Origin: an uncultured Acidobacteriota bacterium
GTDB taxonomy: Bacteria > Acidobacteriota > Vicinamibacteria > Vicinamibacterales > UBA2999
Length of the DNA: 64,000 nt
NCBI GenBank assembly: GCA_963802675.1
Contig: CAWDJL010000005.1
Span: forward strand, 361,193 to 425,192
Reading direction: 5' to 3'
Under the pieces are notes generated by a model. It was not told the DNA's origin and ran no database searches. It was given only the letters and a program-made list of their open reading frames with translations. Of the stretch, positions 12,203-55,368 are shown piece after piece (position 1 is the first letter of the stretch; the number at the start of each line of letters is the position of its first letter). Both the position numbers and the translations under genes were made by a program.

Positions 12203-12260
12203 CTCAGTCCTTCTGCCTTCTGCGCCGGGCTGCGCCTGACGTGGGCTCCACCGTTGGTGC

Positions 12261-12833: not shown

Positions 12834-12834
12834 G

Positions 12835-13725
12835 TTACATGTCCTGGTCGAGGACCCGCTGCAGGTAGGCCCCGTATTCGCTGGAGGCCATCGTGGTAGC
12901 CAGGCGGGCCAGGTCTTCGGCGCTGATGTAGTTCATTCGGTAGGCAATCTCCTCGATGCACGCGACCATCAAGCCTTGCCGCTCCTCGATGGCTTGAACA
13001 TAGCTCGCGGCCTGCATCAGCGACAGGTGCGTGCCGGTATCGAGCCACGCGGTTCCGCGGCCGAGCCGCTCGACGAACAGGCGACCCTCCCGAAGATACG
13101 CCTGGTTGACGTCGGTAATCTCCAACTCACCACGCGCCGACGGCTGAAGCGAGGCCGCGATATCAACCACTTCATTGTCATAGAAATACAGACCAGTCAC
13201 GGCCCACGACGACTTCGGATTCTGCGGCTTTTCTTCCAGCCTGGTTGGTCGGCCCTCGCGGTCGAATTCGACCACGCCATAGCGCTCGGGATCGCGGACG
13301 AGGTAGCCGAACACGGTCGCGCCGTCCACCCGTTCGGAGGCGCGCCGCAGGCTTTCGGTAAAGTGCGCACCGTAAAAGACGTTGTCGCCGAGGGCGAGCG
13401 CCACGCGCGCTGACCCGATGAACGTCCGGCCAATCAGAAACGCCTGCGCCAGCCCTTCAGGATGGGGTTGTGCTGCATAGCTGATCGAAAGCCCGATCTC
13501 GTGACCATCACCGAGGAGCCGCTTGAACCCATCCTGTTCATGAGGTGTGGTGATCACCAGCACGTCCCGGATGCCAGAGAGCATCAGCGTGGCGAGCGGG
13601 TAATACACCATAGGCTTGTTGTAGATCGGGATGAGCTGTTTGCTGATGCCCTTGGTCAGCGGGTGGAGACGAGAACCAACGCCTCCGGCGAGGATGATGC
13701 CTTTCAGGGGTGTGGTCGCGCTCAC
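12835..13725 (-). CDS. rmlA: Glucose-1-phosphate thymidylyltransferase
   Basis: [70 protein letters not shown] is the canonical RmlA sequence. Confidence 0.9.
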
Positions 13726-14921
13726 GGACTCGGACTGGTCGATTCTAGCTCACCTGGACGGCGTGACCGCTGGGCGCACGTGGTCACGAGATCAAGAAAC
13801 GGCGCAAGCTGGGTAGACCAACGCAGCTCCGTCAGCTCCGCCGCCATCGCTCGTTCTCGACGAACGTGCGCCGAGGCCCCCAAGAGCGAGACCAGGGCAT
13901 CGGCAAATGCGTCGGCCTCAGAGGCTGCGACACACGCGACTCGGGTGCACGTCGGCAGGCCGTCAAGCACGGCCGGCGTGACGACACAAGGCAGGCCGGC
14001 GGCGATGGCTTCCAACACCTTGTTCTGGATGCCCCGGGCCAATTGAAGCGGCGCCGCCGCCACGGCGGAGTCCCACAAGAATGGGCGCACATCAGGAACC
14101 GCCCCCGTGACTCGAATGGAGGGGTCCCTCGTGAGCCTTTCGACTCGAGCCGTGGGCTGGGCGCCGACGAGCATGAGGGTTGCGTCCGGCCGGCGGGCCA
14201 GCACTTTGGGCCAGACCTGGCTCGCGAGCCAAACCGCGCCATCTTCGTTCGGGCCGTAGTTGAACACGCCACAAAACACCACTTGCGGGCGCGTGCTGGG
14301 GGGCATTGTCGGCCGAAACCCATCGACGTCAACACCATTTGGAATCGCCACGCCGGCGGGATAGCCCACCGCCGTCTCGAGCAGTACGCGTTCGCGCTCG
14401 TTCACGACCGCGGTCGCACACGCCCGTTCGGCTGCCTTTCGTTCAAAGCGTCTCAGGACCCGGGCCTCACGGCGGTAAATCGCGCGCAGGGGTTGATGGG
14501 CCGTTGCACCAAGGCTGGCCCACTTCTCGGAGTCGACGTCAACCATGTCGAGAAGGCAGGGCACGCCCTTCAGGGGCTCCTTGAACACGTATTGGGCCAT
14601 GCCCGTGCCGAACGCGACCACGACCTGCGGGGGCGCAGCTTCGACCATCCTGTCGAGGAGTCGACGGATATCAGGGCTGTGGAGCAGTACGTGGGTCAGC
14701 GGTCGCGAGCTTGGCAATAGCGCCGCGGCGGCGACGAGTCGCCGGCGGCGGTTCACAGGCGCTGCCGCTACCGACGCAACCCAGGAGGCCAGCTGCGAGA
14801 CCTGTGCAGCTTCGTCCGCATCGTGGACCAGCGAAAGGACGTGGACCTCGTGTCGTGACGCGAGGAGGCGCAACAAATGATAGGCGCGAATCCGATCGCC
14901 CCGGTTTGGGGCGTAGGGCAA
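13722..14921 (-). CDS. Glycosyltransferase family 4, resembling the PEP-CTERM/EpsH1-associated sugar transferase family (from memory)
   Basis: (L)[31 protein letters not shown].. N-terminus and ..[26 protein letters not shown]-terminal GT4 motif. The conserved N-terminus continues upstream as LRLLFLSHR with no ATG/GTG, so the true start may be the TTG at 14921 or a CTG at ~14948. Confidence 0.65.
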
Positions 14922-15333: not shown

Positions 15334-18300
15334 TTAGGTGCCAATTTGCTGTAGCTGATCAAAACTGTCAGCGGCTTGCCGTTCGAAGGATTCCAGGGAC
15401 GCCGAAAGGAGCCGCGCGAGCCCCGCGGCGAACGGTTCTCCCATCATGGTGCTGTGCGATCCGGGCACTTGGTGGACGTCTACGCCACCCGCCGCCAACC
15501 AATCCCACACCGGATCGTAACGAGTAGGCCACGGCCCCAGCAGGGGCAGAGTGCGTGGCAGAAACAACGTGACCCGGCCGCGGAACGGCTTGGGTTGATA
15601 GTTGTGAATCGCGCGGTGATGCGTCCGCAGCATTGCCGCCTGGGAATCCGGGAAGCGCCACATCCCAATCTGGTCGCGCAAGTCGAGCGGCGCCGCGTCC
15701 TCTCGATCGCGGAGCGCCGAGGTCGCGAGACGCGACAAGTGGCGACTCTTGCTGCGGATCCGTCCCAACAACTCCCGCGGCCCGCTGACGATCGCGTCGT
15801 CTACAACCCAGAGAGGAACGTTTCTGATGAAGGCCCAGACCGCTTTCATGCCCCGAACGCACGGGGGCTCGACCTCGTAGTCGATCGCGGTTAGCAGGCC
15901 GACCTCGGCACCCTGGGTGTCGAGTAGCCGGCCCATCTCGAGCACGAGCAGCGCGGCCGAGCAGAACCCGCCCAAGTGATATGGGCCTCGAGGTTGAGCC
16001 TCTCGCAGCACCTTCACGTAATGCGCGGCCATCTCTTCCAGCGTGGCATCACTCTGAATTTGCGACCAATCGGCTGAAAAGCCGTAGACCGGCCGCTCGG
16101 CGGCGAGGTACTTCGAGAGCCGGGTGTAGCTGAAGACCTCTCCGCCCGTCCCGTGCACCCAATAAAAGGGAATGCCCGATCCGCCGTCCGAGATCTTCAC
16201 GAGGACGTTCTGTGTGATCCGTCCTCGGTTGGCAGGCTCAGTGGCAGGCTGAGCCAACTCGTCGATGCGCCGAGCCAGGGCCTCGAGGACACTGTGCTCG
16301 AACAACGCTCCGGGCGGGAGCGTCAACCCGAACTCCTCATGCACGCGATGCACCAGACGCATGACGAGTAGTGAGTGTCCTCCGAGCATGAAAAAGTCAT
16401 CGGCGTGGCTGACGGTTGACAGGCCCAGCAGGTCACACCAGATGCCGGCAAGCCGCGCTTCGGTTTCCGTTGCCGGTGACCGGCGATGTGAGTCAGCCCG
16501 CGCACGATCCGCGTCCGAAGGCGCCGGAAGGGCCTGTCGGTCGAGCTTGCCGTTCGACGTGAACGGCCATGTCTGCACGATGACGAAAGCGGAAGGTACT
16601 GCGTGCGCAGGTAAGAGCCGACCGAGATGAAGGCGCAATGACGCAGGCTCGAGTTTCTCGCCCGACAGATAGGCGACGAGATTCTGCGTGCCCGGAACGT
16701 CCTCGCGGAGCAGAACGACCGACTGTTCCACGCCCGGGTGCGCTTGCAGCACCGACTCGATCTCCCCGAGTTCGACTCGGAAGCCCCGGACCTTGACTTG
16801 ATTATCGAAACGCCCCTGAAACTCGATCGTGCCGTTGCTCAGCCAGCGAACACGATCCCCCGTCCGATACATCCGCGTGGCTCCGGTCGCTGAAAAGGGG
16901 TCGGGCGGGAAGCGCTCCGCGGTCAGATCCTCACGATTGAGATAGCCGCGCGCAACGCCATCGCCACCGATCCAAAGTTCGCCGGGTACGCCGATCGGGC
17001 ACGGGTTACCGTGACGGTCCAGCACGTAAGCTTTGACGTTCGCCAGGGGGCGACCCAGAGGCAGCCCTTCGCTCGTGAGTGTCGATGCCAGGTCGTCGAC
17101 CCGGTAGGTGAGGGCCCCAACCGTCGTTTCCGTCGGGCCGTAGTGATTCACGATCTTGCAGCTCGGCGCGAGTTGCTGCAGCTCGGCGATCCACTCCAAG
17201 CGGGCAGCTTCGCCGCCCAAAACCAGGCATCGTCGTGGCAGCACGGCACGGGCATGGTGCGCCTTGAGCAGAGCGGCCAGGTGGGTCGGGGTGATCTTCA
17301 GCACGTCCACCTGGTGTTGCGACAGGTACTCCGCAAACGCTCGACCGTCACTGGCCCGTTCGGGGCTCAGCACATGCAGGGTCCCGCCGGTCGCGAGGGC
17401 AAGGAAGATCGACGTGTTCCCGAGGTCGGCGGCGACAGTCGAGACCAGCGCATAACTGCTGTGCGCTGGCTGTCCGAGACTCTCGTTGACGCCCCAGGTG
17501 TAATTCAAAACGTTCCGATGCTCGATGACGACGCCCTTGGGGACACCGGTGGTTCCTGACGTGTACATGACGTAGGCGGCATCCGTCGACTCAACGGGAA
17601 TGTCCAGGTTGTCGCCCGACTGCCGCTCGATGACCGCCCCATCACGATCCCAGAAGACCAACGACGTGCCATCACAGGGCGCACCGGCAATGAGCTGCGA
17701 TTGTGTGATGGCAAGGCGAACACCGGCGTCCGCCATGAGGAATGCAAGACGCTCGACGGGATAACTGGGATCCAGCGGCACGTAGGCACAGCCAGCCTTG
17801 TGAATGGCGAGCAGGCTGATGATGAATTCGACGGAGCGGTTGAGACAGATCGCAATCACGTCCTTGGGCTTCGCGCCGCGACTCACCAGAACCCGGGCGA
17901 GGCGATTGGCCAGACCATTCAGTTCGCCGAAGGTGAGCTGGATGTCCTCGCCGACCAAGGCGAGCCGGGTGGGTTCGGCTACAGCCCAGTCCTCGATGAG
18001 TTGATGCAGGCAAGGCCGTGACCGAAATTCGCGCGCGTTCTCGTTGGGAGCCACGAGCACTGCATGCAGTTCGCCCGCGTCGAGCAGAGTGAGCTGGTCG
18101 AGATGGCGGTCTGGCTTTGTCACGGCGTCCGTGACGAGGGTCGCCAGCCGCGTGAGCAGGCGATTCGCCGTCGACGCTTCGAGGGCGTCGCGGTTATATT
18201 CGAGAACGAGGCCGATCCCGTCGGTCGAGACGGTGGCGTGGAACGTTATGTCGAGCTTTGTCGAAACGGTGGTGGGCAGGAGCGTCGTTGCTGTGAGGCC

Positions 18301-19401
18301 AGGGAAACGGACGCTGTCGCCAACCCCGATTATGTTGAACAGCACTTGATACAGCGGGTGCTGACTCAAGCTGCGCACGGGATTAACGGCTTCGACGACT
18401 TTCTCGAACGGGACGTGTTGATGGCCATGAGCTTCGAGCACCGTCTCTCGCACGCGCTTGATCAAGTCGTGGAACGAGAACGAGCCCTCGAACGTCGTAC
18501 GGAGGACCACGGTGTTGATGCAGAGCCCGACGACTCGCTCGAGCTCGAACCGATCACGGCCGCTGAACGGGCAACCGATCGCGATGTCGGATTGGCCCGT
18601 ATGGCGATAGAGCAATGCCTTGAGAGCGGCCAGGAGCACGATGAACGGCGTCGCTGCGTGCACGCGCGCCAGTTCACGCACTGCATCGGCAACGCCGGCA
18701 GGCAGCGACGCAGTGACGACATGGCCGGTGTGGCTCGAGGGCAGGTGCCGATGGTCGACGGGAAAGCGAAGGTCCGGGCTCCCCTCGAGCCGTGACTTCC
18801 AGAATGCGAGCCCAGACGCCAACACCTCACCGCGCAGGTGCTGGCGTTGCCAGGCCGTCAGATCGACGTACTCGATCGTCGGCGCCGGCAATGAGGCGTC
18901 GCTGCCGGTGCAGCGCGCTTCGTACAGCGTCGCCAACTCATCGAGGACGATGTTCAGCGACATTCCATCAACGATGATGTGGTGGCTCGTGATGAGCAGC
19001 ACATGGCGGGTGTCATGGACGCGGATGAGACGAACGCGAACGAGCGGACCGTGCGACAAATCGAACGCCGTGCCGGTCGCTTCGTCGACGAGCTTCTGAA
19101 CCTGCCGATCCGAATCCGGGGCTGCCGGATCGATCTCAATCGTCTCGATATCGATGGCGGCTTCTGGAGCGATGACTTGGACCGCCTCGCCGTCCTCCTC
19201 TCGGAACGTCGTCCGAAACGATTCGTGGCGCGCGAACACGTCCCTGATGGCCCCGACGAACGCGCCCAGGACCATCGCACCGTCGAGCTGGATTGCGAGC
19301 GTGACGTTGTAAGCGGTATCCCCCGGCTTCAGGCGATCGAGAAACCACAGGCGCTGCTGCGCAAACGAGGCGGGGTGGGCAAACTCGGCTAGCGTCGACA
19401 C
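15334..19401 (-). CDS. Non-ribosomal peptide synthetase, single termination module C-A-T-TE (A-domain code Asp-like)
   Basis: C: SFAQQRLWFLD, SHHIIVDGMS. A: AYVMYTSGTTGVPKGV, NHYGPTETT, YRTGDRVRW, GKLDRQALP. T: DDFFMLGGHSLLV. TE: IPFYWVHGTGGEVF, PYHLGGFCSAALLVLEM, VPGSHSTMM. GTG start. Confidence 0.95.
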   Translation of the reverse strand: MSTLAEFAHPASFAQQRLWFLDRLKPGDTAYNVTLAIQLDGAMVLGAFVGAIRDVFARHESFRTTFREEDGEAVQVIAPEAAIDIETIEIDPAAPDSDRQVQKLVDEATGTAFDLSHGPLVRVRLIRVHDTRHVLLITSHHIIVDGMSLNIVLDELATLYEARCTGSDASLPAPTIEYVDLTAWQRQHLRGEVLASGLAFWKSRLEGSPDLRFPVDHRHLPSSHTGHVVTASLPAGVADAVRELARVHAATPFIVLLAALKALLYRHTGQSDIAIGCPFSGRDRFELERVVGLCINTVVLRTTFEGSFSFHDLIKRVRETVLEAHGHQHVPFEKVVEAVNPVRSLSQHPLYQVLFNIIGVGDSVRFPGLTATTLLPTTVSTKLDITFHATVSTDGIGLVLEYNRDALEASTANRLLTRLATLVTDAVTKPDRHLDQLTLLDAGELHAVLVAPNENAREFRSRPCLHQLIEDWAVAEPTRLALVGEDIQLTFGELNGLANRLARVLVSRGAKPKDVIAICLNRSVEFIISLLAIHKAGCAYVPLDPSYPVERLAFLMADAGVRLAITQSQLIAGAPCDGTSLVFWDRDGAVIERQSGDNLDIPVESTDAAYVMYTSGTTGVPKGVVIEHRNVLNYTWGVNESLGQPAHSSYALVSTVAADLGNTSIFLALATGGTLHVLSPERASDGRAFAEYLSQHQVDVLKITPTHLAALLKAHHARAVLPRRCLVLGGEAARLEWIAELQQLAPSCKIVNHYGPTETTVGALTYRVDDLASTLTSEGLPLGRPLANVKAYVLDRHGNPCPIGVPGELWIGGDGVARGYLNREDLTAERFPPDPFSATGATRMYRTGDRVRWLSNGTIEFQGRFDNQVKVRGFRVELGEIESVLQAHPGVEQSVVLLREDVPGTQNLVAYLSGEKLEPASLRLHLGRLLPAHAVPSAFVIVQTWPFTSNGKLDRQALPAPSDADRARADSHRRSPATETEARLAGIWCDLLGLSTVSHADDFFMLGGHSLLVMRLVHRVHEEFGLTLPPGALFEHSVLEALARRIDELAQPATEPANRGRITQNVLVKISDGGSGIPFYWVHGTGGEVFSYTRLSKYLAAERPVYGFSADWSQIQSDATLEEMAAHYVKVLREAQPRGPYHLGGFCSAALLVLEMGRLLDTQGAEVGLLTAIDYEVEPPCVRGMKAVWAFIRNVPLWVVDDAIVSGPRELLGRIRSKSRHLSRLATSALRDREDAAPLDLRDQIGMWRFPDSQAAMLRTHHRAIHNYQPKPFRGRVTLFLPRTLPLLGPWPTRYDPVWDWLAAGGVDVHQVPGSHSTMMGEPFAAGLARLLSASLESFERQAADSFDQLQQIGT

Positions 19402-19510: not shown

Positions 19511-22500
19511 TTACTTCAGACGAAGCCGATGACGCGCAAGCGCTGCGCTTTGGCGCTTCGCCCGATCGGCGATTCGGCTGTTCTCAGGCTCGTCCTTGGG
19601 GCGGCCCAGGTGCTGGGCCAGCTCTCTGATGGTCGAAAACTGAAACATCGTGACGATCGACAGATCTTGCTGCATGACGTCTCGGAGATCCCGGTGAACT
19701 TGAATCATGAGCAGCGATTGTCCGCCGAGATCAAAGAAGTTCTCGTCGGCGCCGATGTCGTCCAGGCCAAACGCCCGTTTCCAGATCGCAGCAATCTGAG
19801 TCTCCAGTCCAGGTCTCGGCGGCGAAGGGTGTTGTTTGCGGAGCCGCGCGGTCTTAGCTGACACTCGCATAGCGCGCGGCGCCGAGAGTCGCGCCATGAC
19901 GTCTGCGACCGTCAGAGAAGGCGTCGATAAGCCCTTCAGAGCCTCGGTCAGATCACGCAGGATCATCTGAAGGCTCGGCTGATCGTACGTACCATCCCTG
20001 GCAATGATGGTCACGCGGAGTTGTTCGCCCGGGACCGCCAGAATCGTCAACGGATAGTTGGTCTGCACCGGCGCGTTGAGCTCGCACACGTCGAGCTGGC
20101 TTCCAAAGCGGCGCAGAGCGTCAGCCGCGGTGTAGCCCTGCAGGACCAGGAGACTGTCGAAGAGACGCCCCGTTGTCGAACGCGCTGCCAAGCCGAGGAT
20201 TGTCGCAAGGGGCGTGAACTGATGCTTTGTCAGCTCGAATTGAAACTCTTGAACGGCCTGTCCCGCCGCAACAGCCGTGACCGAAGGGTCGACCGTAACA
20301 CGGACCGGGAGGTTGTTCACAAACGGTCCGACGATGCGTTCGACGCCGGGAAGTTCGGTCGGCCGCCCCGAGAATGCGACACCAAAGGTGACATCCCGCT
20401 TTCCGGAGTGCCGTGACAGAACCAAGGCCCAGGCGAGTTGAACGAATGTGTTCAGCGAAACGCGCCCACGACGGGTGAGATCCATCAGGGCGCTGGTGTC
20501 GCCCACGTCAAGCGCGTCGCTGACCTCGGCGCGCCCGTCCGCCCGTGCTGGGGACGCGGACAGGGCGGCAGGCAGCGGGGTTGGCTCGGTCACCCCGGTC
20601 AGCGTGCGCCGCCAGAACTCGTCTGACTCGTAGGTCGGCTGGTCGGCCAGCCACCTGACGTAGTCCGAGTACCGCGTTGGCGGGGAAGGATTTGTCCCGG
20701 TGTTGCCGGTCGTCAGCCCTTGGTACGCCGCCCCCACATCGGCGAATACCAGCGGGCAGGACCATCCATCGATGATGAGATGGTGGAAGGTCCAGAGCAG
20801 ATACGATTCCGTGTCGCTCGCACGGAAGACCGCAATCCTCATGAGCGGTGCGCGATCGAGACGAATAGGTCGGTGCCGGTCGCGTTCGGCAAACGCATCC
20901 AGTGCAGCACGCCGGGTGAGGTCGTCGAGGTGACGCCAATCCTCGTAGTGCCACTCCAGGCTGGCCTCCGGCAATACGACCTGCCTGGGCTGCGCCAGCC
21001 CTTCGACGGCGAAGGCGGTTCTGAAAATGGAATGGCTCTGCACCGTTTGGTGCCAGGCGCGTCTGAACAGCGCTTCGTCGAGCGCACCACGCAGGGTGAG
21101 CCGCCATTGGTCCATGCCCACAGAGGACCCGGCCGATACAGCCGCCAGGAACAAATCCTGAATCGGTGAGAGCGCACACACCTCCTCGACGGCTCGGCCG
21201 GATGCAATCTGATCGATCGCCGGTGGCTGCGCGGTGGATACCACGAGTCCCGGCGAGACTTCCGTAAGCGCGATCGCCTTGCGCAGTGCCGCTTGATAGA
21301 GCTCAATCAAGCGAGCGACTGACTCCCCGCGGTAAGCCGTTCGGGGATACATCCAGTCCAGCCGCAAACGACCGCCCACGACGCGAGCAATGATCTCGAA
21401 AAGATGGCTGCGCTTGCCGCGCGGCCCGTGCAACGGACCAAAGTCAACGTTGTCGTGAATCTCGAAGAGCGTGTCCGGGGAGCTTGCGCGGTCGAACTGG
21501 CCGAGATAGTTGAACATGACGTCCGGCGAGGGAGATTCCGCCAGTTTCGAGCGGCAGGCTTGATCGGGACTCAGGTAGCGCAGGAGGCCATAGCCGATGC
21601 CGCGGCTGGGGATGCGCCGCAACGCCGCGCGAGCGGCCAGGAGCGCGTCGCGACTATCGCTGATGTCGCCCTGAAGCCGGACCGGAAATATGGTCGTGAA
21701 CCATCCAATGGTGCGCGAGAGATCGAGGTCATCGAACAACGCTTCGCGTCCGTGTCCTTCCAAATCCACGAGTAGCGTTGCGTGCCCGCTCCATTGGTAG
21801 AACGCCTGGGCAAGCGCCGCCAGCAGGACGTCGTTGATCTGCGTCTGGAGGACCCGTGGAAGATCCTGCAGCAGGCGTTGAGTCTCCTCAGGTGTCAGAA
21901 GTGACGGTGTGATCTCGAGGTCCGACTCGCGCCCTTCGTGACGCTGCGACGGGTGGTCGACGGGGAGCGGCGGCACAGCCGGATCGAAAACGGACGCCCA
22001 GTAATCACGCTGGCTGGCTAGTTCTGCGGATTGTGCGTACGAGCGCAGCCGGCGTGCCCAGCGTGCATACGTTGTGGATGCAGCTGGCAGCCGGATCGCG
22101 AGCCCTTGGGCCAGGTGTCGATAGGCGGTTTCGAGATCGCCGACAAGGATTCGGAGCGAGACGCCATCGATCACGAGATGGTGGACCACGATCAGGATTT
22201 GACTGAGGGACGCGCCTAGCCGAAACAGCACGACGCGGATCAGCGGGCCCGAAGAGAGATTGAGCGACGCGTGCGTCCGCGCAGCATGTTCCCGCATCGC
22301 TTCCTGTTGCCGGATCTGCGAGAGCCCGGTCAGGTCCACGGTTTCCACCAGCTGCGGAGGCGGCGACGGGTCAAGACGCTGCTGCCACCCAGATTCCGCG
22401 GGCGCAAAGCGAAAGCGTAGCGCAGCATGATGCGGCATCACCGCGACCAACGCCTGCTGGAGCAGACCAGGATCGATTGGCCGGGCCGCTCGAGCCGAAA

Positions 22501-25500
22501 TCTCCATGTTCCAGTGCTCGGGCGCCGGCAGGCTCTTCTCGAAGAACCATTCCTGAATCGGCGTCAGCGAAACGCCATGGTCAGACGGGTCATCGGCCTC
22601 GACGTCGGGGGCTGTGGCGACGCGAGACGTTAACGCGCGAGCGAGCTCTGACACCGTGGGATGCTGAAACAAATCTCGCATACCCAGGCGGATACCCGAT
22701 TGCGCGGCACGGGACATCACCTGGATCGCGATAATCGAATCGCCGCCCATCTCGAAAAAGTTGTCATGGACACCGACCGAGCTGACGCGAAGCTGCTCTG
22801 CCCAGATGGCGGCCAGCCTCGCCTCGAGCTCGGCGTGAGGCGACTCGCCATCGACCACGGGATGGGCAGTGGCTTCTTGGCTTGGATCAAGGAACTCGAG
22901 AATTCGACGAGTGGTCGTGAGATCTGTGGCGATGCGCTGATACACGGATGAATCAGCGGGCCGGCGCCCGACATCGCCAGGGGGTGGCAGCGAGCGCTCG
23001 CCCGGTTCCGGTTCCTCTGATGGCGCCCAGCTGGCGGGTTTCAATGGCAGATCGCAGGCGGCCGCCGTCTCCAGCACAAACACGGTGGTCCCGGGTTCAC
23101 CGTCTCGTTTCTCGGCTTCGAGGGCCTCGGCAAATGCGAGTGCCGGCGTATTGCGGGCGGTGCGGCGAAACGGCAGCTCAACGTACGCGAGCTGCTCGGT
23201 CGCCGCCAATCGCCCAATGTGTTTGATGACCTCTCGTTCCACTCCTTTTCCCAAGACGCGGCAACTCAAGAGAAGCGTATCGACGACGAGCGCCCGGCGC
23301 GCCCGGTCGACGCGTGTGATCACCGCGCCAACGAGTCCGTAATCCCCAAAACGATCGCGCACATCCACCACTTCGATGACGGCTCCGTCAGTGGCCAACG
23401 CGCGCAGCTCGGCCTCGGATCGTCGAAAGGTCGTGAAGTTGAACTGGTTGGTGCGCTCGGTCATCTGCGCCGTTCGCGGCAACTGCTGCGGCGTCATCGG
23501 CGCGATTGTGATCTGAAGATCCAGCGTCTCCAGAAACGCCTCGAGGCTCATCCCGCTGTGCTGAAGCTGGCGACGGGCCACCTCTTGCTTGTACATCGCA
23601 CTGCGGCGCTTGTCTTCCTCGGTCTTTCGCCCTTGATCGAGCCGCCACAAGTGCTGCGTAAAGCCGGCCGCCTGGCGGTCATTGGTGGGCCACTGCAGCG
23701 TGACGACCTCAGGCGTCCGGTTCCGAACCTCTGCGCACTCGACCGGGTTGTCGTCGATGAATACAAAGCTGTCCAATCCGAGGTTCAACTCGCCGGCCAG
23801 ATCCTGCAGGTTCTGAGACTTGGGCTGCCAGTTGATTCGCGACGCCAGCACGTGCTCACGCTTCAGGATCATGTCCGGATGCGTGTCGAAGACGGCCCAG
23901 ACATCGGCCGGCTCGTTCTTGCTACACAGACCGATCAGCACGCCGGCGTCGTGTTGCGCGACCAGGTATCGCTGCAGCGCCGCATGTGGGCCGTCGATCG
24001 TCACGCCCCCAGCCCCGTCTTCCGCGCAGACGCCAGCCCACAAGGTATTGTCGCAGTCGACGCTGACGACCTTGGCAGGAATCCTCAGGCGGGCATGGGC
24101 CGCGCGCGCGACCAGCGTCGCGAGCAGCGCGTTTCCGGACGCCGTATATGGCATGTGCCCGAGCTCGTCGCCGCGAGCGTCGTAATAATCCGGGCACTCG
24201 TAGGTCGCGAGCGACTCGAGCCCTGATATCACCGGGATCCCGACCGAGGCGAGCCGTTCCCTGAGAGTCGCTTCGTTTCGCGCGATCACCGCAATCGACT
24301 CCGGATCGGCCGTCATGAAGGAAGACGGCGGACACGTGATCACGACTGAGGGTGACGCGGTGCGCGGAACGGCGGCGAGCACGGCATCGGCAAAATCACC
24401 GGCGTTGCGGTCGATCTGTTCGAACCGAGTTCGTCGGGCCGCGATATCGGCCGCACGATAGGCAGGGCGGGTGGCGAACAGGTTCCAGACGCCCGTGCTT
24501 CGCAGATCCTGCTCTTCTTCCACCACGACATCGAAGCCGTGCCGCTCGAGTAGCGCGACTGAAGCTGGGATCGCATCACCCCGGTCGTGAATCTCCATCA
24601 CGACCTGCTGAACCTTGCTCCAGTCGTCGTCGTCGATGCCGGCGATGAGCGCCAGCTCGCTCTTTTCGACGTCGATCTTGAGAAGGTCGATCGTCCCGAG
24701 GGCTTCGCTGCGGAGCACGTCGCTCAGGCGGCAAACCGGACGCACCAGCCGTTCTCGAGCGAGCCTTTGAGCTACGAGATGAGCGGACAGCTCCGTCGCT
24801 ACCTTCTGGTCAACCGCCAGCCCGCCGTCGCGTGCTAGGGACGTTTGAATGGCGTCGCGAAGGAACGCCGCGTCCTCGGTGTCGTCGGCCTCGAAGCCCG
24901 AGACGACCGAGAAGTTTTGATAGTAGGTGAAGGCGGCCTCGCCGTTTCGGTCGGCCAGACCGCACTCGAAGACTTTGAGATCGAGATCATGGAGCACGGC
25001 GTTGGCCCGCAGAAGGTTGGCGACGGTCGGGCTCGGTTCGAACGCGAGGATGCGCGGGCGTCGGCAGGCGAGTGACGCGAAGAGCGAGAACATCCCGATG
25101 TTCGCGCCGGCGTCGACGATTATCGCGCCGTCCTTCAGCGTCACGCCGTGCCGCAGATAGGCTCGGTTGACGAACAACTCTCGATACAGGTGCTCGGTCT
25201 CGTCACGATTCAGGTGAGCGACTTCGAGGCCGTTCGGGAGCCGGTACCGCGGCAGCTCGCGAGTGGCAGCGGGAGCAATTTCAGCGGAGGAGTGAGCGAC
25301 TCGATGGTTTCCCCGCATCCAGTCCTCGAAGCGCACCAGCAGCACGTTGAGCCCCTGATTGCGCGCCAGCAGCGTCTGTCCGTCGAGCAACTGCTGGAAC
25401 ACCTGGTTGTAGGGCGCAAACGTGACCTCCGCATCCAGGCCCAGCGTCGCCAACCAGGAGGTGAGGACCGGTGCTAGGGGTTCAGCGGTGAACGTGGCTG

Positions 25501-25546
25501 CTATGGCGAGCGTCGAGCGCGTTTGCATGCGAACCGAGTCTTCCAC
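19511..25546 (-). CDS. NRPS-type loading/condensation megaprotein: FkbH N-lobe / FkbM methyltransferase / FkbH HAD-IIIC core - T - E - C - T (no A domain)
   Basis: aa 1-80: LAIAATFTAEPL..APYNQVFQQLL..LLVRFEDW. aa ~100-345: IVDAGANIGMFSLF..ILAFEPSP..IDLLKIDVEKSE (FkbM). aa ~490-800: VVSVDCDNTLW..GLCSKN..FIDDNP..RFGDYGLVG..LSCRVLG (FkbH). T1: DNFFEMGGDSIIAIQ. E: all seven core motifs (LTPIQEWFF, HHLVIDGVS, NDVLLAAL, EGHGRE, RTIGWFTTIFPV, PSRGIGYG, FNYLGQ). C: ALSPIQDLF, FHHLIIDGWS. T2: ENFFDLGGQSLLM. Confidence 0.9.
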   Translation of the reverse strand: MEDSVRMQTRSTLAIAATFTAEPLAPVLTSWLATLGLDAEVTFAPYNQVFQQLLDGQTLLARNQGLNVLLVRFEDWMRGNHRVAHSSAEIAPAATRELPRYRLPNGLEVAHLNRDETEHLYRELFVNRAYLRHGVTLKDGAIIVDAGANIGMFSLFASLACRRPRILAFEPSPTVANLLRANAVLHDLDLKVFECGLADRNGEAAFTYYQNFSVVSGFEADDTEDAAFLRDAIQTSLARDGGLAVDQKVATELSAHLVAQRLARERLVRPVCRLSDVLRSEALGTIDLLKIDVEKSELALIAGIDDDDWSKVQQVVMEIHDRGDAIPASVALLERHGFDVVVEEEQDLRSTGVWNLFATRPAYRAADIAARRTRFEQIDRNAGDFADAVLAAVPRTASPSVVITCPPSSFMTADPESIAVIARNEATLRERLASVGIPVISGLESLATYECPDYYDARGDELGHMPYTASGNALLATLVARAAHARLRIPAKVVSVDCDNTLWAGVCAEDGAGGVTIDGPHAALQRYLVAQHDAGVLIGLCSKNEPADVWAVFDTHPDMILKREHVLASRINWQPKSQNLQDLAGELNLGLDSFVFIDDNPVECAEVRNRTPEVVTLQWPTNDRQAAGFTQHLWRLDQGRKTEEDKRRSAMYKQEVARRQLQHSGMSLEAFLETLDLQITIAPMTPQQLPRTAQMTERTNQFNFTTFRRSEAELRALATDGAVIEVVDVRDRFGDYGLVGAVITRVDRARRALVVDTLLLSCRVLGKGVEREVIKHIGRLAATEQLAYVELPFRRTARNTPALAFAEALEAEKRDGEPGTTVFVLETAAACDLPLKPASWAPSEEPEPGERSLPPPGDVGRRPADSSVYQRIATDLTTTRRILEFLDPSQEATAHPVVDGESPHAELEARLAAIWAEQLRVSSVGVHDNFFEMGGDSIIAIQVMSRAAQSGIRLGMRDLFQHPTVSELARALTSRVATAPDVEADDPSDHGVSLTPIQEWFFEKSLPAPEHWNMEISARAARPIDPGLLQQALVAVMPHHAALRFRFAPAESGWQQRLDPSPPPQLVETVDLTGLSQIRQQEAMREHAARTHASLNLSSGPLIRVVLFRLGASLSQILIVVHHLVIDGVSLRILVGDLETAYRHLAQGLAIRLPAASTTYARWARRLRSYAQSAELASQRDYWASVFDPAVPPLPVDHPSQRHEGRESDLEITPSLLTPEETQRLLQDLPRVLQTQINDVLLAALAQAFYQWSGHATLLVDLEGHGREALFDDLDLSRTIGWFTTIFPVRLQGDISDSRDALLAARAALRRIPSRGIGYGLLRYLSPDQACRSKLAESPSPDVMFNYLGQFDRASSPDTLFEIHDNVDFGPLHGPRGKRSHLFEIIARVVGGRLRLDWMYPRTAYRGESVARLIELYQAALRKAIALTEVSPGLVVSTAQPPAIDQIASGRAVEEVCALSPIQDLFLAAVSAGSSVGMDQWRLTLRGALDEALFRRAWHQTVQSHSIFRTAFAVEGLAQPRQVVLPEASLEWHYEDWRHLDDLTRRAALDAFAERDRHRPIRLDRAPLMRIAVFRASDTESYLLWTFHHLIIDGWSCPLVFADVGAAYQGLTTGNTGTNPSPPTRYSDYVRWLADQPTYESDEFWRRTLTGVTEPTPLPAALSASPARADGRAEVSDALDVGDTSALMDLTRRGRVSLNTFVQLAWALVLSRHSGKRDVTFGVAFSGRPTELPGVERIVGPFVNNLPVRVTVDPSVTAVAAGQAVQEFQFELTKHQFTPLATILGLAARSTTGRLFDSLLVLQGYTAADALRRFGSQLDVCELNAPVQTNYPLTILAVPGEQLRVTIIARDGTYDQPSLQMILRDLTEALKGLSTPSLTVADVMARLSAPRAMRVSAKTARLRKQHPSPPRPGLETQIAAIWKRAFGLDDIGADENFFDLGGQSLLMIQVHRDLRDVMQQDLSIVTMFQFSTIRELAQHLGRPKDEPENSRIADRAKRQSAALARHRLRLK

Positions 25547-26187
25547 CGATCATAACCACCGACAACCGCCCTCGATAAGTCCACAGGACGTCATGCGTGA
25601 TTGTCCCATGGTTGAGCAAAACGATGGCCAAGCCGCGTTTGCGGTCCCGCGCGCGCCCATGCGTGGCCCACGATGCGGAAAATGTTGCGATTTCCGGTGC
25701 TCTCGAGGGCGCGGCCCCCGGCGCGAAGCGATGGGTCTTACTTTTGCAAACCGGGCGGACGCCATGCCGTAGACGGTTGAATGTTGAAGCCAGTGGTTGG
25801 CGCATTCGTGACTTTTATCTGCCGCACGGCCGACAATCGCGCTCCCCAGGCCCCCGGGCACGTGGGCTGCGCATATCGTCGGTCATCCGTTGCTTCGAGG
25901 CGTGCCACGGCCGTTTATCGACAGGTCGAACGTCTGCCTGAAAAGATCGTCGCGCCTGTGTCGCGCGCCAAGGCTGCGCCGGAACGTGTGCGTCTGTGCA
26001 GGCGAGCAGCATTTAGCGCAAGTTGCTTCTGGGCAGACCCGGAATGCCGTCTACTAACGCCACGTTCGGCGGCTCTCTTGCACTATCCGCTGTGCCAGTC
26101 GTCGGGTGTCAAAATGTCGAATGATGCGTGCACGTCCGTCGTCAAGTACACTCGAAGACACCGTCTCTGACCAGCAAAGGCTTACGA
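25547..26187. promoter_or_regulatory. 640-bp divergent non-coding region between the two biosynthetic operons (presumed bidirectional promoter/leader region)
   Basis: No protein-like ORF appears in any frame; all ORFs here are R/A/P-rich. The region is flanked by divergent start codons at 25546 (-) and ~26188 (+). No promoter motifs could be assigned by eye. Confidence 0.3.
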
Positions 26188-28089
26188 GTGAGCACGACCT
26201 CCGAATCCCTCGTCGAGGGTATCGCCATCATTGGCGCCGTGGGGCGTTTCCCCGGCGCGTCAGACCTCGGTCAGTTCTGGGCCAATCTCACGGCCGGGGT
26301 CGAATCCGTCAGCGTGTTGACCGACGCGCAGCTGACGGAGTCGGGGTTCGACCCGCAGCAGCTCCGCGCCGATCCTCGGTATGTTCCGGTCCGCGGCATC
26401 ATCGAGCGCGCCGAGTGGTTCGATGCCGCCTTCTTTGCGTTCACGCCGCGCGAAGCCCAGCTCACCGATCCGCAGCACCGCCTTTTTCTCGAAGCCGCAT
26501 GGGAAGCGCTTGAAAGCGCCGGCTGTGATCCCTCGCGCAGCAAGGGTGCGATCGGCGTGTTCGCGGGTTGCGGTAACAATACGTGGGCGCGTCGATACTT
26601 CGCGCGAGACCTCGACGATCTCGAGTCGGGGGAGTGGCTGGAGTCGGCGATCGGCAACGAGAAGGACTACGTCGCCACCCGTGTCGCCTACAAGCTCAAT
26701 CTGCGTGGCCCCGCCGTCAATGTCAACACCGCCTGTTCGACCTCACTCGTCGCAGTGTGCCAGGCGTGTCAGGCGCTGTGGACCTACCAATGCGATGTCG
26801 CGCTCGCCGGCGGCGTGAACGTGAGCTTCCCACAGGGCCGTGGCTACTACCACGACGATGAGGGCATCTCGTCGCCGGATGGCCACACCCGCGCGTTTGA
26901 CGTCGATGCGCGCGGCACCGTGTTCAGCAACGGCCTGGGCGTCGTGGTGCTCAAACGGCTCGGCGAGGCGCTCGAAGACGGCGACGAAATCCTTGCCGTC
27001 ATTCGAGGCGCGGCCATCAACAACGACGGCTCTGGGAAGGCAAGCTTTACGGCGCCGAGCGCCGACGGGCAAGCGGACGTCGTAGCGCTGGCGCAGGCGA
27101 TGGCCGGCGTATCACCGGACAGCGTGTCGTATGTCGAGACCCACGGCACGGCCACGCCGATTGGCGACGTGATTGAGCTGGCCGGGCTCACGAAGGCGTT
27201 TCGACTGGGAACGGCGAGGACGCAGTTCTGCGCCATCGGCTCGGTCAAGTCCAACATCGGTCACGTCGAGCACGCCGCTGGCGTGGCGGGCCTGATCAAG
27301 ACCGCGTTGGCGCTGCAGCATCGACAGATTCCCCCAAGCCTCCACTACACGCAGCCGAACCCGAAACTGCAGGTGTCGTCGAGTCCGTTCTTCGTCAACC
27401 ATTCGCTGCGCGAATGGAGCAATGTCGACTCGCCGCGTCGCGCCGGGGTCAGTTCCTTTGGCGTCGGCGGGACGAATGCCCATGTGGTTCTCGAGGAGGC
27501 GCCTCCTCGTCCGCCTTCGGGTCCGTCTCACCCCTGGCATCTGCTGCCGCTGTCGGCGAAAACCGGAGCCGCGCTGGATGGGGCATCGTCGGCGCTGGCC
27601 GACTTTCTGAGAAGTCATCCCGAAACGCAGCTTGCCGACGTTGCTTTCACGTTGCAGCGAGGACGATCGTCGTTCGACTTTCGTCGTGCGGTGGTTGCGA
27701 GATGTCCGAAGGAAGCCAGCGCAATCCTGAGTGGTGAGGTGCCGGGAAAGAGCATCGGGCCCGAACGCGCAGGCGATCGCGAGGTCATTTTCATGTTCCC
27801 CGGCGGCGGCGCGCAGTATTGCGGTGCCGCGCGAGGTTTGTATTCGCAGCTCCCCGAATTCAAACAGCAGGTTGACGCCTGCCTGGGCGCTATGGATGCG
27901 CGAATCGCCGCGGCAGTGAGCCGACTGATGCTGGTCGCGCCTGAAGAGGTCACCGTCACCGACCGCGAGCTCGCCGAACGTCCATCAGTCGGCCTGCCGA
28001 TGCTGTTCGCGATCGAGTTTGCCACGGCCCAGGTACTGGCTTGCGCGGGGCGTGAAGCCAGCTGCGCTCATCGGGCACAGCCTGGGTGA
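26188..28089 (+). CDS. Hybrid PKS-NRPS, fragment 1: KS plus N-terminal part of AT (frame lost inside the AT domain)
   Basis: IAIIGAVGRFPGA, DPQHRLFLE, VNTACSTSLVAV (Cys ~26734), ETHGTATPIGD, SNIGHVEHAAG = KS. VIFMFPGGGAQY..LFAIEFATAQVLA = AT start. Likely GTG start at 26188 (AAAGG 8 nt upstream); the ORF track starts at 26128. The listed frame ends 13 codons after a G4 run at 28047-28050. Confidence 0.9.
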   Translation: MSTTSESLVEGIAIIGAVGRFPGASDLGQFWANLTAGVESVSVLTDAQLTESGFDPQQLRADPRYVPVRGIIERAEWFDAAFFAFTPREAQLTDPQHRLFLEAAWEALESAGCDPSRSKGAIGVFAGCGNNTWARRYFARDLDDLESGEWLESAIGNEKDYVATRVAYKLNLRGPAVNVNTACSTSLVAVCQACQALWTYQCDVALAGGVNVSFPQGRGYYHDDEGISSPDGHTRAFDVDARGTVFSNGLGVVVLKRLGEALEDGDEILAVIRGAAINNDGSGKASFTAPSADGQADVVALAQAMAGVSPDSVSYVETHGTATPIGDVIELAGLTKAFRLGTARTQFCAIGSVKSNIGHVEHAAGVAGLIKTALALQHRQIPPSLHYTQPNPKLQVSSSPFFVNHSLREWSNVDSPRRAGVSSFGVGGTNAHVVLEEAPPRPPSGPSHPWHLLPLSAKTGAALDGASSALADFLRSHPETQLADVAFTLQRGRSSFDFRRAVVARCPKEASAILSGEVPGKSIGPERAGDREVIFMFPGGGAQYCGAARGLYSQLPEFKQQVDACLGAMDARIAAAVSRLMLVAPEEVTVTDRELAERPSVGLPMLFAIEFATAQVLACAGREASCAHRAQPG

Positions 28090-41032: not shown

Positions 41033-41050
41033 GAGGGTTGCTCCGTTCGG

Positions 41051-41839: not shown

Positions 41840-42032
41840 AGAGAGCTTCTCCGATCCGCTTGCCAGGACACCCGTGAAGGGTTCGGCTAAGGAGAGCAAA
41901 GGCTGGACCAGTTGGGACGTCATCAATATGCGCGGAATTGACGCTAGCGGGCCGGCCATCGCGAGGGAAGCGGCCTGGAAAGGGGACGCCGGTCTTTGCC
42001 ACGTCTGAGCGGCGAGGTAGATTGAGGGCCAC

Positions 42033-55357: not shown

Positions 55358-55368
55358 AGTACCCGTTC

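What the first reader, a model, noticed from the sequence alone, without database searches (positions are those of the whole stretch)
19511..22760. Complete epimerisation domain directly behind a glyceryl-loading carrier, then an A-less C-T module
Seen: T1 has the GGDSI-type core that usually accompanies E domains. The next domain carries all seven E-domain core motifs, including EGHGRE and FNYLGQ. A DCL-looking C domain (ALSPIQ.., HHLIIDGWS) and a second carrier (GGQSL) follow, with no adenylation domain anywhere in the 2011-aa protein. Inference: one option is that the E domain acts on an alpha-hydroxyacyl (glyceryl) thioester, which I do not know to be described. Another is that T1 is also aminoacylated in trans. 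T2 must be loaded in trans, perhaps by one of the A domains of the C-A-T-TE genes or by an enzyme outside the window.
Basis: partly seen in the sequence, partly recalled or inferred. Interest (0 to 1): 0.7.

Follow-up and report, generated by a model that had tools for sequence, protein, structure and literature searches.

The report
Glycerate loader grafted onto E-C-T chassis
The gene really encodes a glycerate-loading enzyme followed directly by an intact epimerase, a condensation domain and a second carrier with no amino-acid activating domain; it is a natural "loader swap" variant of a very widespread but uncharacterised peptide–polyketide assembly line, and the epimerase-after-glycerate arrangement already has a likely precedent in the vioprolide synthetase.

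Summary
Observation confirmed. ORF 19511-25546 (-) reads FkbM-MT / FkbH / T1 (GGDSI) / E (all seven motifs) / DCL-type C (HHLIIDGWS) / T2 (GGQSL), with no A domain. It is no artefact. Five protein homologues (49-93% identity) and one Acidobacteriota MAG share the architecture. E shows dN/dS 0.21, like the rest of the protein.

New context: T-E-C-T2 is the conserved chassis of a large uncharacterised family. I fetched 80 loci from about 10 phyla. They read C-A(Thr/Ser)-T-E-C-T2 -> KS-AT-ACP-AmT-C-A-T-TE. None has an A domain between C and T2. The KS always follows T2.

In the window clade MT-FkbH replaces C-A(Thr). A sister clade has also lost E.

About 40% of the family lost both catalytic His of this C domain, and no stand-alone A or FAAL is conserved nearby. 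So "T2 must be aminoacylated in trans" is not required. A non-elongating relay to the KS is my favoured, unproven reading.

FkbH-T-E-DCL also occurs in AWI62626.1 (Cystobacter; probably vioprolide VioA). Vioprolide carries L-glycerate although its FkbH uses D-3-phosphoglycerate. E acting on glyceryl thioester is therefore plausible and not wholly new.

Verdict: real, a new variant of known kinds, moderately interesting.

The parts
19511..25546 (-). Whole gene: MT-FkbH-T1-E-C-T2, 2011 codons from GTG. The likely true start is the ATG at 25528 (2005 aa).
   Evidence: the orthologues P0001/P0002 start at MQTRS
24530..25120 (-). FkbM-family O-methyltransferase domain (aa 143-339; VDAGANIG). By analogy it is the 2-O-methyltransferase for glycerate.
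   Evidence: Pfam PF05050 and TIGR01444. The same MT-FkbH pairing occurs in cyanobacterial OMT-FkbH-PCP-ST modules that make 2-O-methylglycerate (PMC13122637, PMC10143770).
23111..24076 (-). FkbH (HAD-IIIC) glyceryl-loading domain (aa 491-812; DCDNT at 497)
   Evidence: TIGR01686, 296.7 bits against a cut-off of 146.65
22622..22834 (-). Carrier T1 (aa ~905-975; GGDSI, Ser937 at 22736-22738). It is the E-partner carrier of the chassis.
   Evidence: It scores 62 bits on average against the family's A>T>E carriers and 33 bits against FkbH>T>C carriers. GGDSI occurs in 37 of 42 A>T>E carriers.
21227..22591 (-). Epimerisation domain (aa 986-1440; His1123 of HHLVIDG, Glu1263 of EGHGRE, FNYLGQ at 1345)
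   Evidence: dN/dS 0.21; evolutionary rate relative to C is not raised
19907..21196 (-). DCL-type condensation domain with no partner A domain (aa 1451-1880; HHLIIDGWS at 1588)
19592..19831 (-). Carrier T2 (aa 1906-1985; GGQSL, Ser1944 at 19715-19717). It is the hand-over carrier to the KS.
   Evidence: In 74 family loci the context is C>T2>KS.
19514..19591 (-). Basic helical C-terminal tail (…RIADRAKRQSAALARHRLRLK), probably a docking element for the KS protein
   Evidence: The tail is conserved across the family alignment A1 (R551 and Q555 invariant, A552 and A558 nearly so). A docking function is inferred.
26128..34255 (+). KS-AT-ACP-AmT-C-A(Pro-like)-T, split into two ORFs by a 1-bp insertion (an extra G) at 28032 inside the AT domain. 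It is the divergently transcribed partner that receives the chain from T2.
   Evidence: (Cys-His-His triad intact). The orthologue in L080 is one 2698-aa gene. A-domain code.
34383..38450 (+). C-A(Val, DAFWIGGTFK)-T-TE termination module of the KS line
15334..19401 (-). LCL-A(Asp-like, DLTKVGHVGK)-T-TE, immediately downstream of the target gene. Its role is unresolved.
   Evidence: Its orthologue is the single divergent C-A-T-TE gene in the E-less relatives L083 and L084.
11111..14921 (-). GT1_4 glycosyltransferase, RmlA-like nucleotidyltransferase, dTDP-sugar 3,5-epimerase-like protein and a GT2. This sugar set travels with the window clade and the E-less clade.
   Evidence: the same genes lie next to the orthologues in L080, L082, L083 and L084

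Best explanation
The protein is the first subunit of an NRPS-PKS assembly line. The line belongs to a widespread, uncharacterised family whose invariant core is T-E-C-T2 followed by KS-AT-ACP-AmT-C-A-T(-TE).

In the usual family member a C-A(Thr/Ser) unit fills the E-partner carrier. In the window clade that unit has been replaced by MT-FkbH.

Proposed steps:
1. FkbH loads D-glyceryl from a phosphoglycerate onto T1 (inferred from the domain family).
2. The FkbM domain methylates the 2-OH (inferred by analogy with cyanobacterial OMT-FkbH modules). This gives an alpha-capped, beta-hydroxy acyl thioester that mimics the N-acyl-Thr/Ser normally found on this carrier.
3. The intact E domain deprotonates and reprotonates C-2. 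The DCL-type C domain passes the epimerised (L) form. This is what apparently happens in the FkbH-T-E-DCL unit of the probable vioprolide VioA, whose product carries L-glycerate.
4. The chain reaches T2, and the KS of the divergent gene takes it from there. The T2-to-KS order is shown by synteny in about 75 loci.
5. Malonyl extension, beta-amination by AmT and two or three amino-acid additions follow (A-domain codes Pro-like, Val, Asp-like). The linked GT and dTDP-sugar genes probably glycosylate the product.

How T2 is filled is not shown. My favoured reading (about 0.35-0.4) is that C-T2 is a non-elongating relay or stereo-gate. In that reading it moves the T1-bound acyl group onto the free thiol of holo-T2.
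For: Architecture and motifs.

Conservation:
- P0001-P0005 (49-93% identity) and the Acidobacteriota MAG L001/L145 share the architecture.
- dN/dS of E is 0.21, C is 0.23 and the whole protein is 0.21.
- All seven E motifs are kept down to 49% identity.
- The E/C rate ratio is 0.56-0.98 across clade pairs (0.78-0.98 for the pairs beyond the three near-identical sequences). In the parent family, where E has a normal aminoacyl substrate, the median is 0.94-1.03.

Chassis:
- The 80 genome loci read C-A-T-E-C-T2-KS-AT-AmT-C-A-T-TE wherever the contig reaches; L145, the window clade's own MAG, carries MT-FkbH in place of C-A and a divergent KS gene.
- The A domain before E has the Thr code DFWN(I/V)GMVHK in 52 of 64 cases, plus 3 with DFWS variants, and a Ser-type code in 6.
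- The window's T1 resembles the chassis A>T>E carriers, not FkbH-adjacent carriers.
- In the C and FkbH trees the window clade and the E-less clade (P0021/23/24) are sisters.

T2 to KS:
- The genes are co-directional and overlapping in L083, L084, L085, L089 and L090.
- The KS has an intact Cys-His-His triad.

E acting on glyceryl:
- FkbH-T-E-DCL recurs independently in P0027/P0038 and in P0389.
- P0389 is AWI62626.1 from Cystobacter sp.: FAAL-ACP-C-FkbH-T-E-DCL-A-T-LCL-A-T-E.
- Vioprolide contains L-glycerate (PMC7383572).
- The vioprolide FkbH activates D-3-phosphoglycerate (PMC10099666).

Relay reading of C-T2:
- No A domain lies between C and T2 in any locus.
- No conserved stand-alone A or FAAL lies nearby. 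The conserved neighbours are a PPTase, a cupin/JmjC protein, a GT4 and one unknown protein.
- About 33 of 80 members replaced HH by P-(A/S/G/P/D), and 2 have HR.
- The upstream loader can be swapped without loss of the line.
Against: - No biochemical result bears on any step.
- FkbH-derived D-glycerate is sterically the analogue of D-serine, so a classical DCL should already accept it without E.
- The sister clade has lost E yet keeps the same DCL-derived C domain and a GGDSI carrier. E is therefore dispensable at least there.
- That P0389 is VioA rests on organism name, accession and module count. Its first A-domain code is Ser-like, not a textbook Ala code. I could not read the primary vioprolide papers.
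- I know of no precedent for a C domain catalysing thioester-to-thiol translocation.
- In this window C keeps HHxxxDG, so ordinary condensation with a trans-loaded acceptor remains fully possible.
- The partner gene carries a frameshift at 28032, so this particular copy may not make a product.
Confidence: 0.5

Rival explanations
1. E is a passenger. It was inherited with the T-E-C-T2 chassis when MT-FkbH replaced C-A(Thr). It may still exchange the C-2 proton, but the DCL takes the native D-glyceryl, which is sterically like D-Ser. E would then have no effect on the product and would be kept for structural reasons such as the E-C interface.
For: - The sister clade P0021/23/24 lost E and keeps an orthologous DCL-derived C domain and a GGDSI carrier.
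- P0057 carries a decayed E-like domain after FkbH-T, with no EGHGRE.
- D-glycerate has the same spatial arrangement as D-serine (stereochemical reasoning).
Against: - Purifying selection on E is as strong as on the rest of the protein.
- The E/C rate ratio is not raised compared with the parent family.
- All catalytic motifs are kept down to 49% identity.
- Independent FkbH-T-E-DCL units exist.
- The vioprolide case pairs the arrangement with an inverted glycerate.
Confidence: 0.25
2. C-T2 is an ordinary elongation module whose carrier is aminoacylated by an A domain elsewhere. The A domain could be one of the three in the cluster (Pro-like, Val, Asp-like) or an unlinked one. Yersiniabactin HMWP2 is a precedent, where one A domain serves several carriers. 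The KS would then receive N-(2-O-methylglyceryl)-aminoacyl-S-T2.
For: - The window's C domain has an intact HHLIIDGWS and is a bona fide DCL.
- T2 is a PCP-type carrier placed where an acceptor carrier sits.
- A C-A(Asp-like)-T-TE gene always lies next to the FkbH gene in the window clade and the E-less clade.
- The HMWP2 precedent is from my own knowledge.
Against: - None of 80 family loci has an A domain at this position, and none has a conserved stand-alone A domain nearby.
- About 40% of the family lost both catalytic His of this C domain yet keeps T2 and everything else.
- The downstream A domain varies widely in specificity across the family.
- The orthologue P0004 has no C-A-T-TE gene downstream.
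Confidence: 0.33
3. T1 is aminoacylated in trans with an L-amino acid, in addition to or instead of glyceryl loading, and E does its usual job on that residue.
For: T1 is the E-partner type of carrier. In the parent family it is filled by an A(Thr/Ser) domain.
Against: - No Thr/Ser-type A domain and no free-standing A domain lies in 64 kb.
- FkbH and MT are intact and under the strongest constraint in the protein (dN/dS 0.15-0.17). That would be pointless if T1 were not their carrier.
- T1 is the only carrier adjacent to FkbH.
Confidence: 0.05
4. The architecture is an assembly artefact or a dead pseudogene left by a recent deletion.
For: The neighbouring KS gene has a 1-bp frameshift. Homologous clusters carry C-A(Thr) before T1.
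Against: - The same architecture occurs in six independent metagenome or MAG sequences down to 49% identity.
- The reading frame of 2011 codons is open.
- dN/dS is 0.21.
Confidence: 0.02

Closest known systems
Vioprolide synthetase VioA (probably AWI62626.1 = P0389, Cystobacter)
   Same: It has FkbH-T followed directly by an intact E domain and a DCL-type C domain. The product carries L-glycerate, although the FkbH uses D-3-phosphoglycerate. It therefore probably works the same way at the epimerisation step.
   Different: - In VioA the glycerate is first 2-O-acylated by an upstream FAAL-ACP-C unit. Here an FkbM domain (O-methylation) takes that place.
- The VioA DCL has its own A-T and continues as a normal NRPS. 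Here the C domain is followed by a bare carrier and then a KS.
- The FkbH domains are not close relatives.
- That P0389 is VioA is inferred, not shown.
Cyanobacterial OMT-FkbH-PCP-ST loading modules (AerB/BslA of suomilide, banyaside and varlaxin; OciA of oscillapeptin)
   Same: An N-terminal FkbM-type O-methyltransferase is fused to FkbH and a carrier. These modules make 2-O-methylglycerate as an N-terminal cap.
   Different: They have a sulfotransferase. They have no E after the glycerate carrier. They continue with an LCL-type C-A-T.
Uncharacterised family C-A(Thr/Ser)-T-E-C-T -> KS-AT-ACP-AmT-C-A-T-TE (80 loci, about 10 phyla)
   Same: T1, E, C, T2, the T2 tail and the KS-AT-ACP-AmT-C-A-T partner are orthologous and in the same order.
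   Different: - MT-FkbH stands in place of C-A(Thr).
- The KS gene is divergently transcribed.
- There are two extra C-A-T-TE genes.
- The family's usual accessory genes (PPTase, cupin/JmjC, 700-aa GT4, one unknown) are absent from the window. A GT1_4 and dTDP-sugar set takes their place.
Mycosubtilin/iturin-type beta-amination module (KS-AT-ACP-AmT-C-A-T)
   Same: The partner gene has the same domain order and a class-III aminotransferase domain.
   Different: There is no acyl-ligase-ACP loading unit. The KS is fed by the NRPS carrier T2 instead. The comparison is from my own knowledge of MycA.
Non-condensing C-like domains, such as the glycopeptide X domain
   Same: In about 40% of the wider family the A-less C domain has lost the catalytic His pair, and two members have HR as in X domains.
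   Different: The window's own C domain keeps HHxxxDG. No P450-type partner is present. A recruiting role is speculation only.

Membership tests
NRPS epimerisation (E) domain | HHxxxDG with the catalytic second His | tested here: met
   HHLVIDG at 1122. It is kept in all six orthologues.
NRPS epimerisation (E) domain | EGHGRE (catalytic Glu) and the remaining E motifs; TIGR01720 signature | tested here: met
   EGHGRE at 1263 and FNYLGQ at 1345. TIGR01720 scores 92.3 bits against a cut-off of 74.2. The best solved relatives are E domains at 1e-100 to 1e-64.
NRPS epimerisation (E) domain | Acts on an aminoacyl- or peptidyl-S-carrier filled by a cis A domain | tested here: not met
   There is no A domain in the protein. 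The carrier is adjacent to FkbH.
NRPS epimerisation (E) domain | Catalyses C-alpha epimerisation of the tethered substrate | not testable with these tools
   Only indirect evidence is available: purifying selection and the vioprolide analogy.
DCL condensation domain | Lies immediately downstream of an E domain and clusters with C domains that follow E domains | tested here: met
   no dual E/C motif
DCL condensation domain | Catalytic HHxxxDG | tested here: met
   HHLIIDGWS at 1588. It is lost in about 33 of 80 family members.
DCL condensation domain | The acceptor is an aminoacyl-S-T filled by the module's own A domain | tested here: not met
   C is followed by T2 after about 25 residues. No A domain sits here in any of 80 related loci.
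FkbH-type glyceryl loading module | FkbH domain above the curated threshold, with the HAD DxDxT motif and an adjacent carrier | tested here: met
   TIGR01686 scores 296.7 bits against 146.65. TIGR01681 scores 59.5 bits. DCDNT is at 497. T1 starts about 90 residues downstream.
FkbH-type glyceryl loading module | Uses D-1,3-bisphosphoglycerate or D-3-phosphoglycerate to form D-glyceryl-S-carrier | not testable with these tools
   Taken from what the literature reports for OzmB and the vioprolide FkbH.
Cyanobacterial OMT-FkbH-PCP-ST cap module | FkbM-type OMT fused N-terminally to FkbH-PCP | tested here: met
Cyanobacterial OMT-FkbH-PCP-ST cap module | A sulfotransferase domain and a following LCL-A-T | tested here: not met
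   There is no PF13469 or PF00685 hit. E-DCL-T follows instead.
T-E-C-T -> KS-AT-ACP-AmT family (uncharacterised) | E-partner carrier, E, A-less C, carrier with a conserved tail, then KS-AT-ACP-AmT-C-A-T | tested here: met
   The partner gene lies at 26128-34255.
T-E-C-T -> KS-AT-ACP-AmT family (uncharacterised) | A C-A(Thr/Ser) unit fills the first carrier | tested here: not met
   It is replaced by MT-FkbH.

The most novel reading that the evidence does not exclude
The A-less C-T2 didomain, here and in the whole family, may be a new kind of NRPS unit. It would be a non-elongating relay or stereo-gate in which a C-fold domain passes the E-processed acyl group from one carrier to the bare thiol of the next. 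That carrier alone is competent to prime the KS. Such a unit would explain three things: no A domain is ever present, the loader can be swapped (Thr to glycerate), and a large subclade could lose both catalytic His. In the window it would operate on an alpha-methoxy-beta-hydroxy acyl thioester that an E domain has inverted.
Probability: 0.3. Interest if true: 0.8.

Novelty: new variant of a known kind. Interest (0 to 1): 0.58.

Why it matters
- If E domains accept alpha-oxy acyl thioesters, D- or L-hydroxy-acid caps can be programmed simply by adding or removing an E domain after an FkbH module. The window clade and its E-less sister clade are a ready-made natural pair for testing this.
- The finding also exposes a stereotyped NRPS-PKS family found in Acidobacteriota, Verrucomicrobiota, Proteobacteria, Actinomycetota, Planctomycetota, Nitrospira and others. 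Its product is unknown. Its central C-T unit breaks the C-A-T rule in every member.
- Working out what fills T2 would settle whether C domains can act as chain-translocation catalysts.

Tried and rejected
- Dual E/C domain for the second C: rejected. There is no N-terminal HH[I/L]xxxxGD motif.
- Stand-alone A, FAAL, MbtH or PPTase in the window: none was found in any ORF of 150 aa or more that I scanned.
- Homologues in the window of the family's conserved accessory genes: none.
- A search with the KS to learn what precedes related KS domains returned only KS-AT fragments and was uninformative.
- Literature: nothing in the held library pairs a glyceryl carrier with an E domain, and nothing gives the domain strings E-C-T-KS or ACP-AmT-C-A in this sense.
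- The Collimonas carenaemin cluster has a different architecture.
- The primary vioprolide papers are not held.
- Dehydration of glyceryl by E to a 2-methoxyacrylyl or pyruvoyl species: considered and set aside. E domains routinely epimerise Ser and Thr without elimination, and nothing in the sequence points to it.
- C acylating the AmT-made beta-amine, with T2 acting only as a primer carrier: considered and ranked low. T2 is fused exactly where an acceptor carrier sits, and no primer loader is conserved.
- FkbH loading both carriers: possible, but it would need ester formation by an amide-forming clade. Ranked at about 0.1.

Full report
**What is there**

The minus-strand ORF 19511-25546 encodes 2011 codons from a GTG. 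The orthologues start six codons later at MQTRS, so the real start is probably the ATG at 25528.

Pfam and NCBIfam find the following:
- An FkbM-family methyltransferase, aa 143-339.
- An FkbH/HAD-IIIC domain, aa 491-812 (TIGR01686, 296.7 bits against a cut-off of 146.65).
- A carrier, T1.
- A Condensation-superfamily domain carrying the E-specific TIGR01720 signature.
- A second Condensation domain.
- A second carrier, T2.
- No AMP-binding domain.

The E-like domain matches solved E domains at E=1e-100 (PvdL), 1e-72 (TycA) and 1e-64 (GrsA).

The ten best solved relatives of the second domain are McyB C1, BacC, PvdL, TycB1 and SrfA-C. As far as I know these all sit behind E domains; the tool gives no subtype labels. 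LCL-type domains score less than half as much. The dual-E/C N-terminal His motif is absent.

**It is not an artefact**

Five protein clusters from independent metagenomes have the same MT-FkbH-T-E-C-T order and length. They are P0001-P0005, at 93, 91, 63, 65 and 49% identity. An Acidobacteriota MAG (L001/L145, 72%) has it too, so the window is most likely acidobacterial.

Against the 91% orthologue, dN/dS is 0.21 for E, 0.23 for C, 0.17 for FkbH and 0.15 for MT. All seven E motifs survive down to 49% identity. The only clade-specific oddity is DGVSL instead of DGVSW in five of the six sequences.

**The surroundings**

Five megasynthase ORFs sit together. The A-domain codes were read by hand and by alignment:
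- The target gene.
- LCL-A-T-TE just downstream (15334-19401), with an Asp-like code DLTKVGHVGK.
- A divergent KS-AT-ACP-AmT-C-A-T (26128-34255), with a Pro-like code.
- C-A-T-TE (34383-38450), with the Val code DAFWIGGTFK.

The KS gene is split by one extra G at 28032 inside the AT domain. The orthologue in L080 is a single 2698-aa gene.

To the left lie a GT1_4 gene, RmlA- and RmlC-like genes, GT2 genes and a Wzy_C gene. To the right there is nothing biosynthetic beyond a small methyltransferase. No free-standing A domain, FAAL, MbtH or PPTase lies in the 64 kb.

**Where T2 leads**

In the relatives the answer can be read from gene order. In L083 and L084 an MT-FkbH-T-C-T gene (P0023 and P0024, no E) overlaps the start of a KS-AT-ACP gene, which is followed by AmT-C-A-T. 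In L085 a gene reading FkbH-T-C-A-T-E-C-T (P0019) is followed directly by KS-AT-ACP-AmT-C-A.

A search with C-T2 alone returned about 86 protein ends of the form (E-)C-T2 among the best 120 hits.

With an alignment of these ends I fetched 80 genome loci. They come from Acidobacteriota, Verrucomicrobiota, Beta- and Gammaproteobacteria, Actinomycetota (including Mycobacterium MAGs), Planctomycetota, Nitrospira, Gemmatimonadota, Myxococcota, Chloroflexi and Methylomirabilota.

Six-frame domain maps gave, wherever the contig reaches, C-A-T-E-C-T2-KS-AT-(ACP)-AmT-C-A-T-TE. The one exception is L145, the window clade's own MAG, where MT-FkbH stands in place of C-A and the KS gene is divergent. About eleven loci have FkbH-T-C in front. 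None has an A domain between C and T2.

The KS here has its Cys-His-His triad. The basic tail after T2 is conserved across the family.

So the A-less C-T2 is the invariant hand-over point of a large, apparently uncharacterised family. The string searches found no paper describing it.

**What the window clade is**

In the family, the A domain in front of E carries the Thr code DFWN(I/V)GMVHK in 52 of 64 readable cases, plus three DFWS variants. It carries a Ser-type code in six.

The window's T1 scores 62 bits on average against the family's A>T>E carriers and 33 bits against FkbH-adjacent carriers. The C and FkbH trees place the window clade and the E-less clade as sisters inside the family.

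Hence MT-FkbH has replaced C-A(Thr) on an otherwise intact T-E-C-T2 chassis. Alternatively a T-C-A segment was deleted from an FkbH-T-C-A-T-E-C-T2 ancestor. One daughter lineage later lost E as well and kept the GGDSI carrier.

Chemically the swap makes sense. 2-O-Methylglycerate is an alpha-capped, beta-hydroxy mimic of N-acyl-Ser/Thr. The 2-O position for the methyl group is inferred from the cyanobacterial OMT-FkbH-PCP-ST modules.

**Does E work on glyceryl?**

Arguments for:
- Constraint on E is undiminished. The E/C rate ratio is 0.56-0.98 across pairs in the window clade, and 0.78-0.98 for pairs beyond the three near-identical sequences. In the parent family the median is 0.94-1.03.
- FkbH-T-E-DCL has arisen elsewhere. 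It occurs in P0027 and P0038, in the context PKS -> C-FkbH-T-E -> DCL-A-T -> C-FkbH-T-TE.
- It also occurs in P0389, found by the exhaustive representatives search.

P0389 is AWI62626.1, an NRPS from Cystobacter sp.. Its architecture is FAAL-ACP-C-FkbH-T-E-DCL-A-T-LCL-A-T-E. That fits the first four of the ten vioprolide modules.

Vioprolides contain L-glyceric acid, 2-O-acylated in the precursor, followed by L-Ala and D-Leu (PMC7383572). The vioprolide FkbH was reported to activate D-3-phosphoglycerate (PMC10099666). An inversion is therefore needed, and an E domain sits exactly where it would be needed.

I could not read the primary vioprolide papers. The first A-domain code of P0389 is Ser-like rather than a textbook Ala code. 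The identification is therefore probable, not certain.

Arguments against:
- D-glycerate is sterically the analogue of D-serine, so a classical DCL should take it without E.
- The E-less sister clade shows that the line can run without E.
- P0057 has a decayed E after FkbH-T.

I put active epimerisation with an effect on the product at roughly 0.5-0.55, and a silent passenger E at 0.25.

**What fills T2?**

Four observations bear on this:
1. No A domain is ever present at this position.
2. The conserved neighbours in the family are a PPTase (24 loci), a cupin_8/JmjC protein (20), a GT4 of about 700 aa (15) and an unknown protein (13). No A domain or FAAL is among them.
3. The loader upstream can be Thr-A, FkbH-T-C-A or MT-FkbH without loss of the line, so T2 filling does not depend on it.
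4. In a monophyletic subclade of about 33 of the 80 loci, the C domain's T-H-H-L-L-I-D-G has become V-P-A-L-L-L-D-G or a similar sequence. Both His are gone. Two more loci have H-R. The flanking DGWSWP, T2 and all other domains stay conserved.

A reaction that needs little or no general-base help fits this best. I therefore favour a non-elongating relay in which the acyl group passes from T1 to the thiol of holo-T2 and from there to the KS. The C fold would act as gate and scaffold.

This has no precedent known to me. The window's own C domain keeps HHxxxDG. Ordinary condensation onto a T2 aminoacylated in trans is about equally likely (0.33). HMWP2 is a precedent for that, from my own knowledge. 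FkbH loading both carriers (about 0.1) and C acting on the AmT-made amine rank lower.

**Novelty and verdict**

The finding is real. The E-behind-FkbH part is a new member of an arrangement that already exists in a characterised pathway, although I found no assay of it. The A-less C-T part is not a peculiarity of this gene. It is the hallmark of a widespread, unstudied NRPS-PKS family, of which this window is a loader-swap variant.

I rate it a new variant of known kinds, with interest about 0.58. The most valuable follow-up is the T1-to-T2 transfer experiment and the natural pair of E-containing and E-less clades.

Noticed in passing
window 28019-28089 (indel at 28032): A 1-bp insertion (an extra G, CAGG against CAG) inside the AT domain splits KS-AT-ACP-AmT-C-A-T into two ORFs. 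The 91% orthologue in L080 is one 2698-aa gene. This is either a sequencing error or a genuine inactivation.
   Followed up: yes
L091-L170 (e.g. L096 10022-11290, L108, L113): In about 33 of 80 family loci the A-less C domain has lost both His of HHxxxDG (VPALLLDG, VPGMLLDG and similar). Two loci have HR. These loci form a monophyletic subclade, and everything else stays conserved.
   Followed up: partly
L132 5423-6709 and the first C domain of most L091-L170 loci: The N-terminal C domain of the parent family is itself DCL-like (McyB C1 305 bits, PvdL DCL 284 bits), yet no E-containing module lies upstream. Its donor substrate is unexplained.
   Followed up: partly
window 25528-25546: The GTG at 25546 is probably not the start. 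The orthologues begin at the ATG six codons downstream (MQTRS…).
   Followed up: yes
window 15334-19401 and 34383-38450: There are two C-A-T-TE genes of exactly 1355 aa each, but they are only distantly related (Asp-like and Val codes). The one next to the FkbH gene is the orthologue of the single C-A-T-TE gene in the E-less relatives. Why the cluster has two TE-ending modules is open.
   Followed up: partly
P0051-P0120: Proteins of about 1300 aa reading PS-DH / FkbM / FkbH / ACP are very common in metagenomes. They may make dehydrated O-methylglycerate starters.
   Followed up: no
P0066, P0083, P0088, P0091, P0106, P0114, P0115: NRPSs with the order C-A-T-TE-A-T-C-FkbH-T-TE, that is, with an internal TE domain and a terminal glycerate module.
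   Followed up: no
window 933-14921: A polysaccharide-type locus (Wzy_C, several GT1, GT2 and GT4 genes, two RmlA-like and two RmlC-like genes, NAD-dependent epimerases, an amine oxidase) abuts the NRPS genes. L089 (Pirellulaceae) also has Wzy_C and GT4 genes in front of its family member.
   Followed up: partly
window 39815-43040 and 48251-49261: Four ORFs of 335-405 aa have no Pfam match.
   Followed up: no
window 49458-53613 and 55285-59965: A DUF58/VWA/BatA aerotolerance-like operon and three consecutive PmbA/TldD-family peptidase paralogues. They appear unrelated to the cluster.
   Followed up: no
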